Shown here piece after piece: positions 5,450-51,733 of a stretch of 64,000 bases of DNA. Under the pieces are notes generated by a model, which saw nothing but the letters and a program-made list of their open reading frames with translations, had not been told where the DNA came from and made no database searches. The stretch is taken from NCBI RefSeq assembly GCF_009914755.1, contig NC_060942.1; one strand, written 5' to 3'. Origin of the DNA: the human T2T-CHM13v2.0 reference genome, Homo sapiens. The first letter of the stretch is position 1. Each line of letters starts with the position of its first letter. A program made the position numbers and the translations under genes.

Positions 5450-5509
5450 TCATTCATGGTCACATTTCTTTACTGAAAAAGATGGGTATATTGAAGCGTT
5501 GACTGCCTC
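5450..5509 (-). pseudogene. Relict terminal coding exon equivalent to SELENOI exon 10
   Basis: Acceptor cttcctgtttcttcttgag; RQ-(deletion)-QRFNIPIF(+1 T)SVKKCDHE-TGA versus [22 protein letters not shown]. TGA at 5450-5452. Confidence 0.75.
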
Positions 5510-5765
5510 CTCAAGAAGAAACAGGAAGTGATCATTACCAAACAGAGGCTCCCTTTAAATTTAAAATATGTAGCCAAGAAAGAGGCTAACACTACCTAAG
5601 AAAGACCCCAATTAAATGTTTAAGCTAAAAAAAGCAGAGGGTTGGGGATAGGGCATGTTTTTGTTTTGTCTTCCAATTTCAGTGTTTTTAAAGGCTGAGC
5701 ACCAACTATGGGCGAAGCACAGGAGTCAAAAGTAACTTTACTCCTAAAATATCATATCATTATCC

Positions 5766-6007
5766 TTTTTTTTTTTCTTGCTCTGTCGCCCAGGCTGGAG
5801 TGCAGGGGTGCAATTTGGGCCCACTGCAACCTCCAACTCCCAGGTTCAAGTGATTCTCCTGCCTTAGCCTCCTGAGTAGCTGGGACTACAGGTGCATGCC
5901 ACCACACCCAGCTAATTTTTTGTATGTTTTAGTAGAGGCAGGGTTTCACCATGTTGGCCAGGCTGGCTGAAGTGCTGGGATTAGGCGTGAGCCATCATGC
6001 CCAGCCT
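5766..6007 (-). mobile_element. Alu with internal deletion
   Basis: polyT followed by reverse-complement Alu body. Confidence 0.9.
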
Positions 6008-6308
6008 CATCTAACGATCTTTAAGTTATTCTAATGGAGCTCTATAGAGAGGGGTATTCTGAATCCATTAAGTTAGGTCTTGCCTTAATCCAAAAAAATA
6101 AACTAAAGCTGTCTGCATATTTTTAAGGCAGTATATTACATATAAATGAGGAAATCAGCATGAAGGGAAAGTAAGGCAGGAGGGAAAAGACAAAGCCAGA
6201 GGTAAAGTTAGGAGCCTTACACATGCCCTGAGGTCTTCTAGACTTTACTAGGACTAAAGGAGAAAAAATGACCTCTGTGCTTCCTAGTAGCCAACAGAGA
6301 GGAAAGTA

Positions 6309-6720
6309 CAACCAGCCCTCTGTATCTGAAGGGTCTACATCTACAGATCAACCATGTATCAAAAATATTTTTAAATAAATAGAAAATAATACAAATTTTT
6401 AAAAAATACAATATTAGAACTACATATAGTCCCTGATATACAATGGTTAAACTTACAATTTTTGGTCTTTATGATGAGTTTATCAGGATATTGAATGCAT
6501 TTTCAACTTATGAAATTTTTGACTTAAAAATGTGTTTATTGAGAAGCAACCTCATTATAAGTGAGAGCATCTGTACTTAACATTTACATCGCATTAGGTA
6601 TTATAAGTAATCTAGATATGATTTAAAGTATATGGGAGAATGTGTGAGGGTTGTATGCAAATACCATACCAGTTTTTACTAGGGACTTGAACATCCGTGG
6701 ATTTTGGTATTTGCAGGAGC
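6309..6720 (-). mobile_element. MER2-like (TcMar-Tigger) fossil with a nested MER47/Tigger5-like piece at ~6423-6575
   Basis: cagccctctgtatctgaagggtc...aaaatatt and ggacttgaacatccgtggattttggtat match MER2 reversed. The inner segment ends gagcatctgta, like a Tigger5 TIR. Confidence 0.65.
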
Positions 6721-7828
6721 AGTGTGTGTGCGGATGGGGGTGGGTGGAGGAGGGGTCCTGTTTAAACAAATCAGTTACTTGGGAGCACAGATATTTCTTG
6801 GCGTTACCTCCTAGGAAGAAATTGAATGATGTAGGGAGCCTGACCTCAACAACATCTCACAGCAAATACAGTAACACTGTAATAGGACTGCTTCCAACTA
6901 TCCCTGATGATATAATGCCAAGATGTGGTTCAGTCGAAAGCAATCTACCAGGGACTGGAGCTGTCTGTGCATGTAAACAGCTCCTGGGAGGTCGGGCTTC
7001 ATCCCAGGATAAACTATAGAATCATAGGGCAGTGATGGGGGCGAGGGGAAGGGTACTGCAAGTGCTACTCCCTGCAGCCTAAGTTTAGTAAATACTGAAT
7101 GGCAGTGTGACCTTGGCAACTACTAAAGGACAGACACTGAATGCTGCTGATCAACACCCGGTTCCTTTCCCAACAGTCAGCACATGGAGGGGAGGGGCTG
7201 TTCTCAGGCTACAGGCTGAGGAGCCCGGCCAGGCCACAAGCCACAGGCCACCCCACCCCTGGCAGGTGGGAGGAGGGGTGCCACGGTCCGGGTCACACTT
7301 TTCCCCAGAAGCATCATAAGGGTTTGACTTTTGTGAGTCTGTTTTGCGTTTGGTTTTGGTTTTTCAATTATCCTTGGCAATTCACTGATAGGGAAATTTT
7401 CAGTGTAGATTATAGATATGAAGCTATTAGCTGTTCCACACTCCTGTAAGCCTTAAAATTGTCCTGGAGAAAGCCCACTGACAGATGGTATGCTTCCTAA
7501 GTCAAAACACAAGTCTGTAGGGGAAAAGAGAGTATTTTAATAAAAATCTTATTATATCTATAAAACCCTTTACAGGTTGCAAAATGGCTTCAAAGATGAT
7601 AATTATTAGAGGAGAAAGAGAACAGGCTTTGAAAATTACCTAACTGGATTCCAATTCCAGCTACACCACTTCTACCTGTGTCCTTTTAAATAAATTACAC
7701 ATAATTTCTGAGCCTCAGTTTCCTCATCTGAACATATAGATGATACCTACCTTGCACAGTTGTTTTGAAAAATAAGTGAAGATGGTGTGTATAAAGTACC
7801 TTGCACATAGTCGATACTTAATAAATGG

Positions 7829-8404
7829 TGGCCAGGCGTGGTGGCTCACACCTTAATCCCAGCACTTTGGGAGGCCAAGGTGGGCGGATCATTTGAGGTT
7901 AGGAGTTTGAGACCAGCCTGGCCGACATGGTGAAACCCCATCTCTACTAAAAAAATAATAATACAAAAATTGGCTGGGTGTGGTGGCATGCGCCTGTAAT
8001 CCCAGCTACTCAGGAAGCTAAGGCATGAGAATCGAACCCAGGAGGCGGAGGTTGCCGTGAGTCGAGATTGCGCCACTGCACTCCAGCCTGGGTGAGAGTG
8101 TGAGACTCTGTCTCCAAAACAAAAGGCCGGGCACAGTGGCTCACGCTTGTAATCTCAGCATTTTGGGAGGCCGAGGTGGGCGAATCACAAGGTCAGGAGA
8201 TCGAGACCAGCCTGGCCAATATGGTGAAACCCTGTCTCTACTAAAAATACAAAAAATTAGCTGGGCATGATGGTGGGCGCCTGTAATCTCAGCTACTCGG
8301 TACGCTGAGGCAGGAGAATTGCTTGAACCTGGGAGGCAGAGGTTGCAGTGAGCAGAGATCGTGCCACTGCACTCCAGCCCAGGTGACAGTGTGAGACTCT
8401 GTCA
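7829..8404 (+). mobile_element. Two head-to-tail AluS elements (7829-8124 and 8125-8404)
   Basis: The second Alu starts directly in the tail of the first. Confidence 0.93.
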
Positions 8405-8540
8405 GAAAGAAGAAAGGAAAAGAAAGGAAGGGAAAGGAAGAGAAGGGAGGGGAGGGGAGGGGAGGGGAGGGGAGGGGAAGGGAAGGGAAGGGAAGGGAAA
8501 AAGAAAGGAATGGAAAAGGAAAAGGAAAGGACAAAGAAAG
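8405..8540 (+). repeat. Purine-rich (GGAAG/GGAGG/GAAAA)n tract
   Basis: Almost purely A/G for ~135 bp, derived from the Alu tail. Confidence 0.9.
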
Positions 8541-49860: not shown

Positions 49861-49915
49861 GGGAGAGGCACCCCCATTCTAGAACATGGGAGAGGCACCC
49901 CCATTCTAGAACATG
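49861..49915. repeat. Perfect 27-bp tandem duplication (gggagaggcacccccattctagaacat)x2
   Basis: Directly visible. Confidence 0.95.
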
Positions 49916-50484
49916 CTCCAGGTCCCCATGACCCTGGAATTCCCTAATTGAACCCCAGTCCAGTTTCTAGGCCCATGCATCCCTTTTCCCAGCATGCCAG
50001 GGGTGGCTGTTTGGGGAGGTGCAGAGGGATGTGGAACTAGGGCTGCCACCTGGGTCTCCACTTGCATGCAAACAAGGCCTATGTCCAGTAGGACATAAGC
50101 TAGGAGTGGCAGGAGAAGCAGGGAGCAGTCCCTGGACCTCCATTTATACTAGCTTACCCAGGCCCCCTAAATGTTGGAATGGTTCTGCTATGACACCCTT
50201 ACCTTCTTTTCCCAGATTCAATAGAGTTCTCTAAAGTAGACCGCTGGATTAAAAATAAAACCGATCAACCAACCAACAACAACAACAAAAAACCCAAAAC
50301 TTCATTTTCCAAAGTTATTTGTAAACTTACCTCTTTTGCACACCTGTTATATATTGCCAAAATTTATCATTTGCGAAATTTAAAGACCTGTGCCATGAGA
50401 GATGATTTGAAATTGCAAAAAGGACAGTGTCAGGGGGAGCAGTTGACTTCACTTCTGATCTGTACTATCAAAATCCTGCTCTAG

Positions 50485-50787
50485 GGCTGGGCGCAGTGGC
50501 TCACACCTGTAATCTCAGCACTTTGGGACACCAAGGTGGGCAGATCACCTGAGGTCAGGAGTTCGAGACCAGCCTGGACAACATGGTGAAACCCTGTCTC
50601 TACTAAAAATATAAAAATTCGTTGAGTGTGGTGGTGCACACCTGTAGTCCCAGCTACTAGGGAGGCTGAGGCACAAGAATGGCTTGAATCTGGGAGGCAG
50701 AGGTTGCAGTGAGCCAAGATCACATCACTGCACTCCAGCCTGGGCTACAGAGCAAGACCCTGTCTCAAAAACAAACAAACAAAAAAC
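50485..50787 (+). mobile_element. AluS
   Basis: Dimeric Alu. Confidence 0.93.
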
Positions 50788-51065
50788 CACCTTGCTCTAT
50801 GAATTAGAGATCACTTTTCATGCCTGCATTTTGTTTATTTTTTATTGTTTATTTTTTTTTGGAGATTTTATTATATGAACTCCAGTGTCCTTTTTTATTT
50901 TTAATTTCTATGATTCTACATAACCAATTCAAACTTAAATTTTAAAATGCATTACTTTTTGTTCAAGCTCCTGGAGACTTTTACTGATCCCCCTATTTTG
51001 TATACAAATGTTTGGGTGTTTGTTCTTCGCTTTTCATAGTTCATTTGAACTTGAGTTCCTCTTAC

Positions 51066-51162
51066 GTGAAGAACATTATGGTGAAGAGAACAAAGACGAA
51101 ATGAATGGCTTCTCTCTCAAAATAGTTATAATGAGGCTCACATTAAAAATGAGGCTCACAAC
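51066..51162 (-). pseudogene. Tentative relict exon equivalent to SELENOI exon 6
   Basis: ag|VVSLIFNVSLIITILREKPFI..(frameshift)LFTIMFF|gtaaga versus [30 protein letters not shown]. Order and length mod 3 fit, but the polypyrimidine tract is poor and there is a local 18-bp-period duplication. Confidence 0.4.
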
Positions 51163-51562
51163 CTGACACTTAGCTTTTCTACTCCTAGGCAAACAGGGGG
51201 CAATGTACATCTAGTGCTAATTAAATTAAATACCCAAATACTGGGTTTTCAACAAACACAAACAAATTCAGAAGAGTGAACTATACTACTTTACTTGGAA
51301 TATCAATGACAGCCTAAGTAACAGAAGAATAAACCTGGATAACAGTGGATGGTAACTACATAGTATAACTATTGGCCAATTTGGAGAATTTGGAACATAA
51401 TCAATGAAACAATATCAATATTTACCATCCTAATTTTAAGTGACCTCCAAAAAACAACATGATGTTACATAATCCCTTTTTACTCTTTATAAATTATGAG
51501 AAATTCTTAAATTATGTTTTCTGTAAATTGTTAGCAGAAACATGATTTTCCCTGAGTCTTGC

Positions 51563-51733
51563 TGCTTGGTATAGATCATAACCCTAAGGAAAAAAGGAGC
51601 CTCCAGTGTTGTCCTTCTCTGGTGGGAAGTTAAATAAGACAGTGCTCAGGAAGGGAACATCGTATGCACAGACATTTGTTCTCTCAACACAGAACTAGAC
51701 TGAGATCTCCTCACATGCTTCTATCTATGGAAT
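51563..51733 (-). pseudogene. Relict exon equivalent to SELENOI exon 5 (CDP-alcohol phosphotransferase motif)
   Basis: Acceptor ttctttttcattctag, then (D)SID-x-KHVRRSQSSSVLRE [deletion] MSVHTMF-x-FLSTVLFNF..EKDNTGGSFFP*GYDLYQA. SELENOI reads DGVDGKQARRTNSSTPLGE...[30 protein letters not shown]. The donor has decayed to gcaaga and the LFDHGLD part is deleted. Confidence 0.9.

What the first reader, a model, noticed from the sequence alone, without database searches (positions are those of the whole stretch)
5450..51733. Fossil multi-exon SELENOI/EPT1-paralog gene (candidate unitary pseudogene) hidden among repeats
Seen in sequence: five minus-strand segments, essentially invisible in the ORF track, that translate to CDP-alcohol phosphotransferase-like peptides in collinear order across 46 kb, most with AG/GT boundaries. 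Established knowledge, recalled: SELENOI/EPT1 has DGVDGKQARRT..., [16 protein letters not shown], a 49-nt exon 7 and EAMVPLFSP in exon 8. Inference: introns exclude a retrocopy, and divergence from SELENOI looks too protein-like (conservative substitutions) for a recent duplicate. This suggests an ancient paralogous Kennedy-pathway enzyme, beside SELENOI/CEPT1/CHPT1, lost on the lineage to this genome. I cannot tell whether it is already annotated.
Basis: partly seen in the sequence, partly recalled or inferred. Interest (0 to 1): 0.92.

Follow-up and report, generated by a model that had tools for sequence, protein, structure and literature searches.

The report
Dead EPT1L gene beside MAPRE2
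The human genome still carries the broken, intron-containing remains of a second ethanolamine-phosphotransferase gene (EPT1L, the sister of SELENOI) that monotremes, marsupials, birds, reptiles, amphibians and many fishes keep intact but placental mammals appear to have lost.

Summary
On the minus strand there is a collinear chain of decayed exons of a CDP-alcohol phosphotransferase gene. Most keep AG/GT borders at the same intron positions as SELENOI, including an intact 49-nt exon 7.

It is not a copy of SELENOI. It is the human ortholog of EPT1L ("ethanolaminephosphotransferase 1-like"), a separate vertebrate paralog.
- 196 readable residues are 60% identical to marsupial EPT1L and 59% to echidna EPT1L. 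The best SELENOI match is 39%.
- In a tree the fossil sits inside the EPT1L clade, beside the marsupials.
- No placental EPT1L protein appeared in two large searches.

The gene is larger than the finding. Exons 2-4 lie outside the window (window coordinates 85.9-88.0 kb, towards ZNF397). Exons 5, 7, 8, 9 and 10 lie inside it. Exons 1 and 6 were not found.

The gene is dead. It has stop codons and frameshifts, and a deletion of about 29 codons removes half of the catalytic motif. The decay (about 0.2 substitutions per site) fits a loss roughly 100 million years ago or earlier.

The ASXL and MAPRE neighbours on chr2 and chr18 suggest an old duplicated-region (ohnolog) pair. RefSeq has no gene here, and my literature searches found no description of it.

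The parts
5460..64000 (-). The in-window part of the EPT1L fossil. The whole recognisable span is window coordinates 5460-87952 (T2T chr18:35,345,460-35,427,952), so the gene runs out of the window at its 5' end.

Three exons lie outside the window and cannot be entered as parts of their own:
- Probable exon 2 (87952-87880). An AG lies in front. It has a stop, small insertions and a 25-nt tandem duplication at its 3' end.
- Exon 3 (87574-87464). AG and GT are kept. It is 111 nt, where SELENOI has 109. The 5' half has stops and a frameshift. The 3' half is almost unchanged and includes the CFYDWDYTA stretch.
- Exon 4 (86000-85932). It is 69 nt with an open frame, AG and GT are kept, and it has the length expected for EPT1L.
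   Evidence: Collinear exon matches. No RefSeq gene is annotated here (hub table).
- Exon 3: tblastn E 1.5e-5; profile alignment 74.1 against a null maximum of 53.6; 16 of 28 residues identical to P0155.
- Exon 4: tblastn E 3.5e-5; exon profile 43.1 against a null maximum of 35.0; 12 of 25 residues identical.
- Exon 2: profile 35.2, within the null range of 30.9-39.3, but about 300 nt upstream of exon 3 as in SELENOI. 16 of 1344 null 2-kb windows reach it. The interval size was chosen after the fact.
51563..51733 (-). Exon 5, the catalytic exon. It is 171 nt, where about 272 nt is expected. The AG acceptor is kept. The lesions are: a 1-nt deletion at the Gly of the DG motif; a deletion of about 29 codons that removes the G-x3-D-x3-D half of the motif; a second frameshift; a 3-codon deletion; a TAG at the Trp of the WGYD stretch; and a donor GT changed to GC.
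   Evidence: 39 of 60 aligned residues identical to P0155. Profile alignment 75.8 against a null maximum of 53.6.
17640..17688 (-). Exon 7. It is exactly 49 nt with an open frame, a polypyrimidine tract plus AG in front and GTAAAT behind. Length and phase match SELENOI exon 7.
   Evidence: Exon HMM 15.9 bits against a next best of 4.1. Exon profile 40.5 against a null maximum of 27.5.
16582..16731 (-). Exon 8. It is 150 nt, where about 184 nt is expected. AG and GTAAGG are kept. It has a TAG stop at the fourth codon and an internal deletion of about 9-11 codons with a frameshift. It contains the LLPLVSP stretch.
   Evidence: tblastn E 2e-8 to 3.5e-8. Genome-wide E 7.9e-5. HMM 33.6 bits against a next best of 8.8. 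32 of 49 residues identical to P0155.
10599..10768 (-). Probable exon 9. It is 170 nt, where about 183 nt is expected. An AG lies in front and GTAAAT behind. It has a TGA stop, small deletions and a frameshift.
   Evidence: tblastn with P0142 (10702-10631, 50% identity, E 0.84). It is the top minus-strand exon-9 profile hit (37.9), but the null maxima are 37.4-39.2. 44 of 1236 null 11-kb windows reach it. 14 of 27 residues identical. Its support comes from order and position, not from score alone.
5460..5509 (-). Probable exon 10 with its terminal TGA. An AG lies in front, followed by a small deletion with a frameshift. The stop falls within a few codons of the EPT1L terminus.
   Evidence: reading. 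Exon profile 28.8 against null maxima of 27.1-31.6. 14 of 1308 null 5.1-kb windows reach it. The interval size was chosen after the fact.

Best explanation
The feature is a unitary pseudogene: the decayed human ortholog of EPT1L (ethanolaminephosphotransferase 1-like). EPT1L is the vertebrate sister gene of SELENOI/EPT1. It belongs to the CDP-alcohol phosphotransferase family, whose members carry out the last step of the Kennedy pathway.

Shown here:
- Eight of ten expected exons are traceable in order on the minus strand over about 82 kb.
- Splice borders sit at SELENOI's intron positions.
- The gene carries stops and frameshifts, and a deletion removes half of the catalytic motif, so it cannot encode an enzyme.

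Inferred:
- The gene was functional in the mammalian ancestor, because it is intact in monotremes and marsupials.
- It lost constraint on the placental stem lineage and has drifted neutrally since then, while repeats inflated its introns.
- SELENOI and EPT1L probably arose together as an ohnolog pair, with ASXL2/ASXL3 and MAPRE3/MAPRE2, in the early vertebrate genome duplications.
For: 1. Statistical reality. tblastn E 3.5e-8, 1.5e-5, 3.5e-5 and 4.5e-4 for exons 8, 3, 4 and 5. Genome-wide E 7.9e-5 for exon 8. Frameshift-aware scores of 99.2, 75.8 and 74.1 against null maxima of 53.3, 52.3 and 53.6. Exon 7 HMM 15.9 bits against 4.1, and exon 8 33.6 against 8.8.

2. Gene structure. The exon order is 2-3-4-5-7-8-9-10 along the minus strand. 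AG is kept in front of each traced exon. GT is kept after exons 3, 4, 7, 8 and 9. Exon 7 is 49 nt and exon 4 is 69 nt, as expected.

3. Identity of the gene. In a tree of 95 proteins, EPT1L forms a clade of 51 tips separated from 44 SELENOI-type proteins by a branch of 0.52 with support 1.0. The fossil's 196 readable residues are 60.2%, 59.2% and 58.7% identical to two marsupial proteins and the echidna protein; the best SELENOI is 39.3%. At 11 clade-diagnostic positions the fossil has the EPT1L state at 8, the SELENOI state at 1 and another state at 2. In the tree it is sister to the marsupials (support 0.87) within mammals (0.996). The exon-8 piece scores 25.1 bits with the EPT1L HMM and 18.2 with the SELENOI HMM.

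4. Loss in placentals. By my count of the table, 81 of 120 listed rows are at least 57% identical to marsupial EPT1L, and 78 of these carry an organism name. Three are marsupial, one is a monotreme, the rest are non-mammals, and none is placental. The same database lists many placental SELENOI proteins. The only other matches in this human genome are SELENOI, CEPT1 and CHPT1 exons plus weak hits.

5. Age. 45 of 129 residues on which marsupials, echidna, turtles and a bird agree are changed in the fossil. A simple neutral codon simulation gives this fraction at about 0.2 substitutions per site.

6. Paralogous regions. ASXH-domain and EB1-domain hits put ASXL2 at 25.79 Mb, SELENOI at 26.38-26.43 Mb and MAPRE3 at 27.07 Mb on chr2. 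On chr18 they put ASXL3 at 33.88 Mb, MAPRE2 at 35.32 Mb and the fossil at 35.345-35.428 Mb. The gene names for these hits are my assignment from known map positions.
Against: - Exons 1 and 6 were not found.
- Exons 2, 9 and 10 do not exceed null maxima by score alone. They rest on position and order, with interval sizes chosen after the fact.
- The residue alignments were guided by a profile built from EPT1L proteins. This favours EPT1L-like readings, although plain tblastn with single proteins finds the same pieces.
- The EPT1L exon structure was inferred from SELENOI, not read from an intact EPT1L gene.
- The gene neighbourhood of intact orthologs could not be checked, and no other placental genome could be examined. 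"Lost in all placentals" therefore rests on the absence of proteins in databases and on the degree of decay.
- The age estimate is rough, and it is biased low because only alignable residues are counted.
- Whether GENCODE or Ensembl list a pseudogene here was not checked.
Confidence: 0.92

Rival explanations
1. The pieces are an old DNA-level duplicate of SELENOI itself (a duplicated pseudogene), not the ortholog of a separate vertebrate paralog.
For: SELENOI peptides do hit the same places, more weakly: exon 8 E 0.004 and exon 5 E 0.22 with primate SELENOI. The SELENOI HMM gives 18.2 bits on exon 8.
Against: The fossil is 60% identical to marsupial EPT1L and at best 39% to any SELENOI. 8 of 11 diagnostic positions carry the EPT1L state. 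In the tree it sits inside the EPT1L clade next to marsupials. Exon 4 has the EPT1L length, two codons shorter than SELENOI's.
Confidence: 0.02
2. The matches are chance similarity of hydrophobic, AT-rich translated sequence to a membrane protein.
For: Many weak hits of that kind exist all over the window. Some long gapped profile alignments score up to 62.9 (36230-36695). Exons 2, 9 and 10 are within the null range by score.
Against: - Exon 8 alone has E 7.9e-5 against the whole genome.
- Exons 3, 4, 5, 7 and 8 all exceed every null scan.
- The exons lie on one strand in the right order.
- They have splice signals at homologous positions, and exon 7 is exactly 49 nt.
Confidence: 0.01
3. The gene died much later, in primates or a subgroup of placentals, and other placentals still have it.
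For: No other placental genome was examined directly. The protein searches list only the best 120 cluster representatives, out of 8000 scored candidates.
Against: No placental EPT1L appears among the 81 rows at 57% identity or more, although placental SELENOI proteins abound in the same database. 35% of ancestral residues are changed, there are many indels, and two exons are lost. This fits about 0.2 substitutions per site of neutral drift, far more than primate-age decay.
Confidence: 0.05
4. The locus is dead as a coding gene, but some pieces were reused, for example as exons of a non-coding transcript or as regulatory DNA. That would explain why exons 4 and 7 kept open frames and splice sites.
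For: Exons 4 and 7 are intact in length, frame and AG/GT. RefSeq enhancer features lie in the region (hub table: 3112-3612, 5235-5334, 56753-57979). A CpG island sits at window coordinates 91-93 kb, at the ZNF397 start.
Against: Both exons are short (69 and 49 nt), so survival of an open frame by chance is likely. None of the listed enhancer features overlaps a fossil exon. No expression or conservation data were available.
Confidence: 0.08

Closest known systems
EPT1L / "ethanolaminephosphotransferase 1-like" of non-placental vertebrates (e.g. P0155 Antechinus, P0161 Monodelphis, P0142 Tachyglossus, P0160 Parus, P0147 Xenopus)
   Same: - Highest residue identity (59-60%).
- Same clade in the tree.
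- Same diagnostic residues.
- Same exon 4 length.
- Terminus in about the same place.

   Different: The human copy is broken by stops, frameshifts, deletions, and two exons that could not be found. The others are predicted intact proteins of 386-388 residues with the full PF01066 domain.
SELENOI / EPT1 (human chr2p23.3), the selenoprotein ethanolamine phosphotransferase
   Same: Same family and the same ten-exon layout, including the 49-nt exon 7. Both lie near an ASXL and a MAPRE gene.
   Different: Only 36-39% identical to the fossil reading. SELENOI carries a C-terminal extension with selenocysteine. Predicted EPT1L proteins stop exactly where SELENOI has its Sec codon.
CEPT1 and CHPT1 (the other human Kennedy-pathway CDP-alcohol phosphotransferases)
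   Same: They share the catalytic exon motif. They are hit by the same Pfam model and by marsupial EPT1L in the human genome.
   Different: More distant. They match only over the catalytic exon (residues 83-141 of P0155) and the N-terminal exon region (residues 8-72). No tree including them was built here.
Human unitary pseudogenes of genes kept in other vertebrates (GULO is a textbook case, recalled and not checked here)
   Same: A single-copy gene that died in place, keeps its introns, has no functional copy left, and has intact orthologs elsewhere.
   Different: This one appears much older (placental stem rather than primate), so it is far more decayed. It is missing from the RefSeq table supplied for this window and its flanks.

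Membership tests
CDP-alcohol phosphotransferase (Pfam PF01066) | Catalytic motif D-x2-D-G-x2-A-R-x8-G-x3-D-x3-D in one reading frame | tested here: not met
   The first half is recognisable, but the Gly is lost to a 1-nt deletion and Ala has become Val. The G-x3-D-x3-D half is deleted. The PF01066 genome scan gave no chr18 hit. The fossil derives from the family but cannot encode a member.
EPT1L orthologous group | Groups with EPT1L rather than SELENOI in a tree, at the position expected from the species tree | tested here: met
   Sister to marsupials (0.87), within mammals (0.996), inside the 51-tip EPT1L clade. Caveat: the residue alignment was guided by an EPT1L profile.
EPT1L orthologous group | Clade-diagnostic residues | tested here: met
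   8 of 11 diagnostic positions carry the EPT1L state, 1 the SELENOI state and 2 another state.
EPT1L orthologous group | Same gene neighbourhood as intact EPT1L in marsupials, monotremes or birds | not testable with these tools
   No non-human vertebrate genome is available. Only the within-human ASXL/MAPRE paralogy could be shown.
Unitary pseudogene | Disabling mutations in a copy that keeps its introns (not processed) | tested here: met
   Stops in exons 2, 3, 5, 8 and 9. Frameshifts in exons 3, 5, 8, 9 and 10. Exons are spread over 82 kb with AG/GT borders.
Unitary pseudogene | No functional copy elsewhere in the same genome | tested here: met
   A search of the whole genome with marsupial EPT1L finds only SELENOI, CEPT1 and CHPT1 exons, the fossil, and weak hits with E > 0.3.
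Unitary pseudogene | Functional orthologs in other species | tested here: met
   Predicted full-length proteins with PF01066 are present in monotremes, marsupials, birds, reptiles, amphibians, lungfish, coelacanth and early-branching ray-finned fishes. Their function is predicted, not assayed.

The most novel reading that the evidence does not exclude
Loss of EPT1L on the placental stem left placental mammals with the selenoprotein SELENOI as their only dedicated ethanolamine phosphotransferase. This would have made plasmalogen and PE synthesis selenium-dependent and non-redundant, which may explain why human SELENOI defects cause severe neurological disease.

In addition, almost all predicted full-length EPT1L proteins end at the position aligned with SELENOI's selenocysteine codon, and the human fossil has TGA there. 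Two readings follow. Either SELENOI's Sec arose by recoding the ancestral stop of the pre-duplication gene, or EPT1L is itself an overlooked selenoprotein whose UGA is read as a stop by annotation pipelines.
Probability: 0.2. Interest if true: 0.8.

Novelty: new member of a known kind. Interest (0 to 1): 0.6.

Why it matters
- **Enzyme count.** It adds a fourth Kennedy-pathway CDP-alcohol phosphotransferase (beside SELENOI, CEPT1 and CHPT1) to the ancestral mammalian set. It also shows where that gene died in the human genome.
- **Origin of SELENOI.** The selenoprotein literature I read treats SELENOI as a family that appeared at the vertebrate root. I saw passages of PMC3316567 and PMC13134290, and those passages do not mention a Sec-less sister gene. 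EPT1L is that sister, so the origin of SELENOI's Sec extension can now be studied by comparing the two genes.
- **Disease relevance.** SELENOI defects cause complicated spastic paraplegia, and CEPT1 cannot fully compensate (passages of PMC12936836). The missing paralog may be part of the reason. Marsupials, birds or frogs could be used to test whether EPT1L provides redundancy.
- **Method.** It shows that exon relics can still be traced after roughly 100 million years of neutral decay.

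Tried and rejected
- **Exact motif search.** Nothing on the minus strand. The motifs are too diverged.
- **Pfam scan of long translated stretches.** The call returned an error because of stop codons. I used my own six-frame pieces with locally built family HMMs instead.
- **tblastx of the SELENOI locus against the window.** The output was swamped by Alu repeats and was of no use.
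- **PF01066 whole-genome scan.** It misses the fossil.
- **Search for exon 1.** Nothing above null up to window coordinate 124,000.
- **Search for exon 6.** Nothing above null between exons 5 and 7.
- **Long gapped profile alignments.** Those at 36230-36695 (62.9) and -5699..-5434 (56.4) span implausible protein ranges. I treated them as hydrophobic noise and did not study them further.
- **Search for a SECIS relic downstream of exon 10.** There were no SECIS hits at window 1-6000 (E <= 10) or in the 10 kb below the window (E <= 1). The same scan also found no SECIS in the 20 kb of chr2 holding and following SELENOI's last exon. The positive control therefore failed, and the negative says nothing.
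- **Nucleotide likeness just past the fossil's TGA to SELENOI's Sec extension.** I looked at this by eye only, and it is too short to weigh.
- **Literature searches.** Searches found no paper on the paralog or its human relic. EPT1L occurs only as a chicken gene symbol (passages of PMC7243251 and PMC8748702). The hit in PMC7042341 is a cell-line name.

Full report
**Starting point**

The window is human T2T chr18:35,340,001-35,404,000, a stretch without RefSeq genes between MAPRE2 and ZNF397 (hub table).

The quoted SELENOI motifs are not present letter for letter. One search gave 0 minus-strand hits and one irrelevant + strand hit. A six-frame scan of the whole genome with Pfam PF01066 gave 7 matches: on chr2, chr20 (two), chr12, chr1, chr14 and chr16. 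None was on chr18.

The chr2 match is SELENOI's catalytic exon.

**First signal**

tblastn with that human exon gave its best window hit at 51649-51554 on the minus strand (E 0.038). This is suggestive but not decisive.

A protein search with the exon returned 1368 relatives. One, a sturgeon protein (P0001), was only 61% identical to SELENOI. Used as a query, it matched four collinear minus-strand places better than SELENOI did:
- 51720-51679
- 51619-51566
- 17686-17642
- 16718-16623

**The paralog**

Searching with P0001 and later with a marsupial protein revealed a family that databases call "ethanolaminephosphotransferase 1-like" (EPT1L in chicken). It occurs in:
- sturgeons, paddlefish, bowfin and bichir;
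- eels, tarpon, bonefish and a mormyrid;
- coelacanth and lungfish;
- caecilians, frogs and a salamander;
- turtles, lizards, alligator and birds;
- echidna (P0142) and marsupials (P0155, P0161, P0163).

By my count, 81 of the 120 listed rows are at least 57% identical to marsupial EPT1L. The other 39 are 52-55% identical and are SELENOI-type. Of the 81, 78 carry an organism name, and none is a placental. One search shows that the same database holds many placental SELENOI proteins.

I built a tree from 95 of the 201 proteins fetched to that point, keeping those of 370-400 residues without X. It separates a 51-tip EPT1L clade from 44 SELENOI-type proteins by a branch of 0.52 with support 1.0.

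**Exon map**

I mapped a primate SELENOI protein (P0013) onto chr2:26,370,001-26,470,000 of this genome. This gave ten exons, including a 49-nt exon 7. I transferred the borders to marsupial EPT1L by pairwise alignment.

Per-exon HMMs built from the EPT1L alignment were run over all six frames of the window:

| Exon | Place | Bits | Next best |
|---|---|---|---|
| 8 | 16614-16730 | 33.6 | 8.8 |
| 7 | 17642-17686 | 15.9 | 4.1 |
| 5 | 51566-51649 | 9.0 | it is the top hit |

I then ran a frameshift-aware profile alignment over 114 kb (window plus flanks). On the minus strand it scored 99.2 (exon 8), 75.8 (exon 5) and 74.1. The third lies outside the window at 87462-87573 and is exon 3. Three null scans (plus strand, and the reversed profile on either strand) peaked at 53.3, 52.3 and 53.6.

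tblastn on the 114 kb confirmed the following with P0155:
- exon 3: E 1.5e-5
- exon 4 (86037-85897): E 3.5e-5
- exon 8: E 3.5e-8
- exon 5: E 4.5e-4

Against the whole genome, exon 8 still has E 7.9e-5. It is more similar to marsupial EPT1L (57%) than SELENOI's own exon 8 is (46%).

**Anatomy**

- **Exon 3** (87574-87464). AG and GT are kept. The 5' half is broken. The 3' half is nearly unchanged.
- **Exon 4** (86000-85932). It is 69 nt with an open frame, and AG and GT are kept. This is the length expected for EPT1L, two codons shorter than SELENOI's 75 nt.
- **Exon 5** (51733-51563). The AG is kept. Its lesions are:
  - a 1-nt deletion at the Gly of the DG motif;
  - a deletion of about 29 codons that removes the second half of the catalytic motif;
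  - a second frameshift;
  - a 3-codon deletion;
  - a TAG in place of a conserved Trp;
  - a donor changed from GT to GC.
- **Exon 7** (17688-17640). It is exactly 49 nt with an open frame, and AG and GT are kept.
- **Exon 8** (16731-16582). AG and GT are kept. It has a TAG at the fourth codon and an internal deletion with a frameshift.
- **Probable exon 9** (10768-10599). AG and GT are present. It has a TGA and small deletions.
- **Probable exon 10** (5509-5460). An AG lies in front, there is a small deletion, and it ends in TGA.
- **Probable exon 2** (87952-87880). An AG lies in front, and it contains a stop.

Exons 2, 9 and 10 do not beat the null maxima by score. Each is nevertheless the best or near-best minus-strand hit, and each lies where the gene order demands. 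Null windows of matching size reach their scores in 16 of 1344, 44 of 1236 and 14 of 1308 cases. The interval sizes for exons 2 and 10 were chosen after the fact.

Exons 1 and 6 were not found, even after extending the search to window coordinate 124,000. A CpG island at 91-93 kb marks the ZNF397 start.

**Which gene**

The aligned fossil residues inside exon bounds number 196. The results below are unless another call is given.
- They are 60.2% and 59.2% identical to two marsupial EPT1L proteins, and 58.7% identical to echidna EPT1L.
- The best SELENOI-type protein reaches 39.3%. The mean is 50% over the EPT1L clade and 36% over the SELENOI clade.
- At 11 positions where the two clades are each at least 90% fixed for different residues, the fossil has the EPT1L state at 8, the SELENOI state at 1 and another state at 2.
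- Added to the alignment, the fossil joins the marsupials (support 0.87) within mammals (0.996), on a long branch of 0.85.
- The alignment was guided by an EPT1L profile, which is a bias. However, the profile averages all 51 sequences and cannot by itself produce a position next to marsupials. Single-sequence tblastn also ranks marsupial and echidna queries highest.

**Age**

At 129 positions where two marsupials, echidna, two turtles and a bird agree, the fossil differs at 45 (35%). A simple neutral codon simulation gives 33% at 0.20 and 40% at 0.25 substitutions per site.

By recalled mammalian neutral rates of about 1-2e-9 per site per year, that is on the order of 100 million years or more. 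This fits a loss between the marsupial-placental split and the placental radiation. The figure is rough, and it is biased low because only alignable residues count.

**Origin**

Pfam scans of this genome gave the following positions. The gene names are my assignment from known map positions.

| Domain | chr2 | chr18 | chr20 |
|---|---|---|---|
| EB1 | 27.07 Mb (MAPRE3) | 35.32 Mb (MAPRE2) | 34.57 Mb (MAPRE1) |
| ASXH | 25.79 Mb (ASXL2) | 33.88 Mb (ASXL3) | 34.16 Mb (ASXL1) |

SELENOI lies between ASXL2 and MAPRE3. The fossil lies just beyond MAPRE2. This is the pattern of paralogous regions left by the early vertebrate genome duplications. It argues that SELENOI and EPT1L are an old ohnolog pair rather than a local duplication. 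This last step is inference.

**Literature**

- The terms EPT1L, "ethanolaminephosphotransferase 1-like", "SELENOI paralog" and "SelI paralog" found 7 papers. Two use EPT1L as a chicken gene symbol (passages of PMC7243251 and PMC8748702). One hit is a cell-line name (PMC7042341).
- No paper holds both "ethanolaminephosphotransferase" and "unitary pseudogene".
- One search listed 10 of 46 papers, and none of the 10 contains "ethanolaminephosphotransferase".
- Passages of PMC3316567 and PMC13134290 place SELENOI's origin at the vertebrate root. They note that no homolog covers the Sec position outside vertebrates. The passages I saw do not mention the sister gene. Their supplementary figures (trees and alignments, TIFF files) were not seen and may include it.
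- Passages of PMC12936836 state that CEPT1 cannot fully replace SELENOI in human disease.

**Side observation**

Almost all full-length predicted EPT1L proteins end at the position aligned with SELENOI's selenocysteine. The fossil's terminal codon is TGA. I could not see the stop codons of intact EPT1L genes. An Rfam scan for a SECIS relic was negative, but it also found no SECIS in the 20 kb of chr2 holding and following SELENOI's last exon, so it is uninformative.

**Verdict**

It is a very old unitary pseudogene of EPT1L. It is larger than the reported span. It is absent from the RefSeq table supplied for this window and its flanks, and it was not described in the papers I could search.

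Still open:
- the gene neighbourhood of intact orthologs;
- the state of the locus in other placentals;
- the GENCODE and Ensembl tracks.

Noticed in passing
Proteins; window 5460-5462: Predicted EPT1L proteins from fishes to marsupials nearly all end at the residue aligned with the one before SELENOI's selenocysteine. The human fossil has TGA at its terminus. Either the ancestral stop was recoded to Sec in SELENOI, or EPT1L's own stop deserves a look for UGA plus a SECIS.
   Followed up: partly
L006 (G000 chr14:63,839,860-63,839,976, + strand): A PF01066 match of 23.8 bits (cut-off 22) with an in-frame TAG. It carries a D-x2-D-G-x2-A-R-like stretch and lies outside any of the five known human family genes as far as I can place them. 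It may be chance or another relic.
   Followed up: no
Window coordinates about 87856-87905 (outside the window, in L020): A 25-nt unit is tandemly duplicated at the 3' end of the probable exon 2 of the fossil.
   Followed up: no
(taxon lists): EPT1L-type proteins were listed for eels, bonefish, tarpon and a mormyrid, but for no other teleosts and no sharks or rays. Sharks, rays and a lamprey appear only among the rows 54% or less identical to marsupial EPT1L. This hints at further independent losses besides the placental one.
   Followed up: no
Window coordinates 91,000-93,000 (outside the window, L020): A CpG island (observed/expected CpG 0.63-0.87, GC up to 0.65) lies at the annotated ZNF397 start, about 3 kb upstream of the fossil's probable exon 2 on the opposite strand. 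The lost first exon and promoter of EPT1L may have lain here.
   Followed up: partly
P0001 (Acipenser ruthenus, 402 aa): This database protein model contains the catalytic exon twice in tandem and lacks the normal N-terminus. It is probably a gene-model artefact. The isoforms P0121 and P0122 look normal.
   Followed up: no
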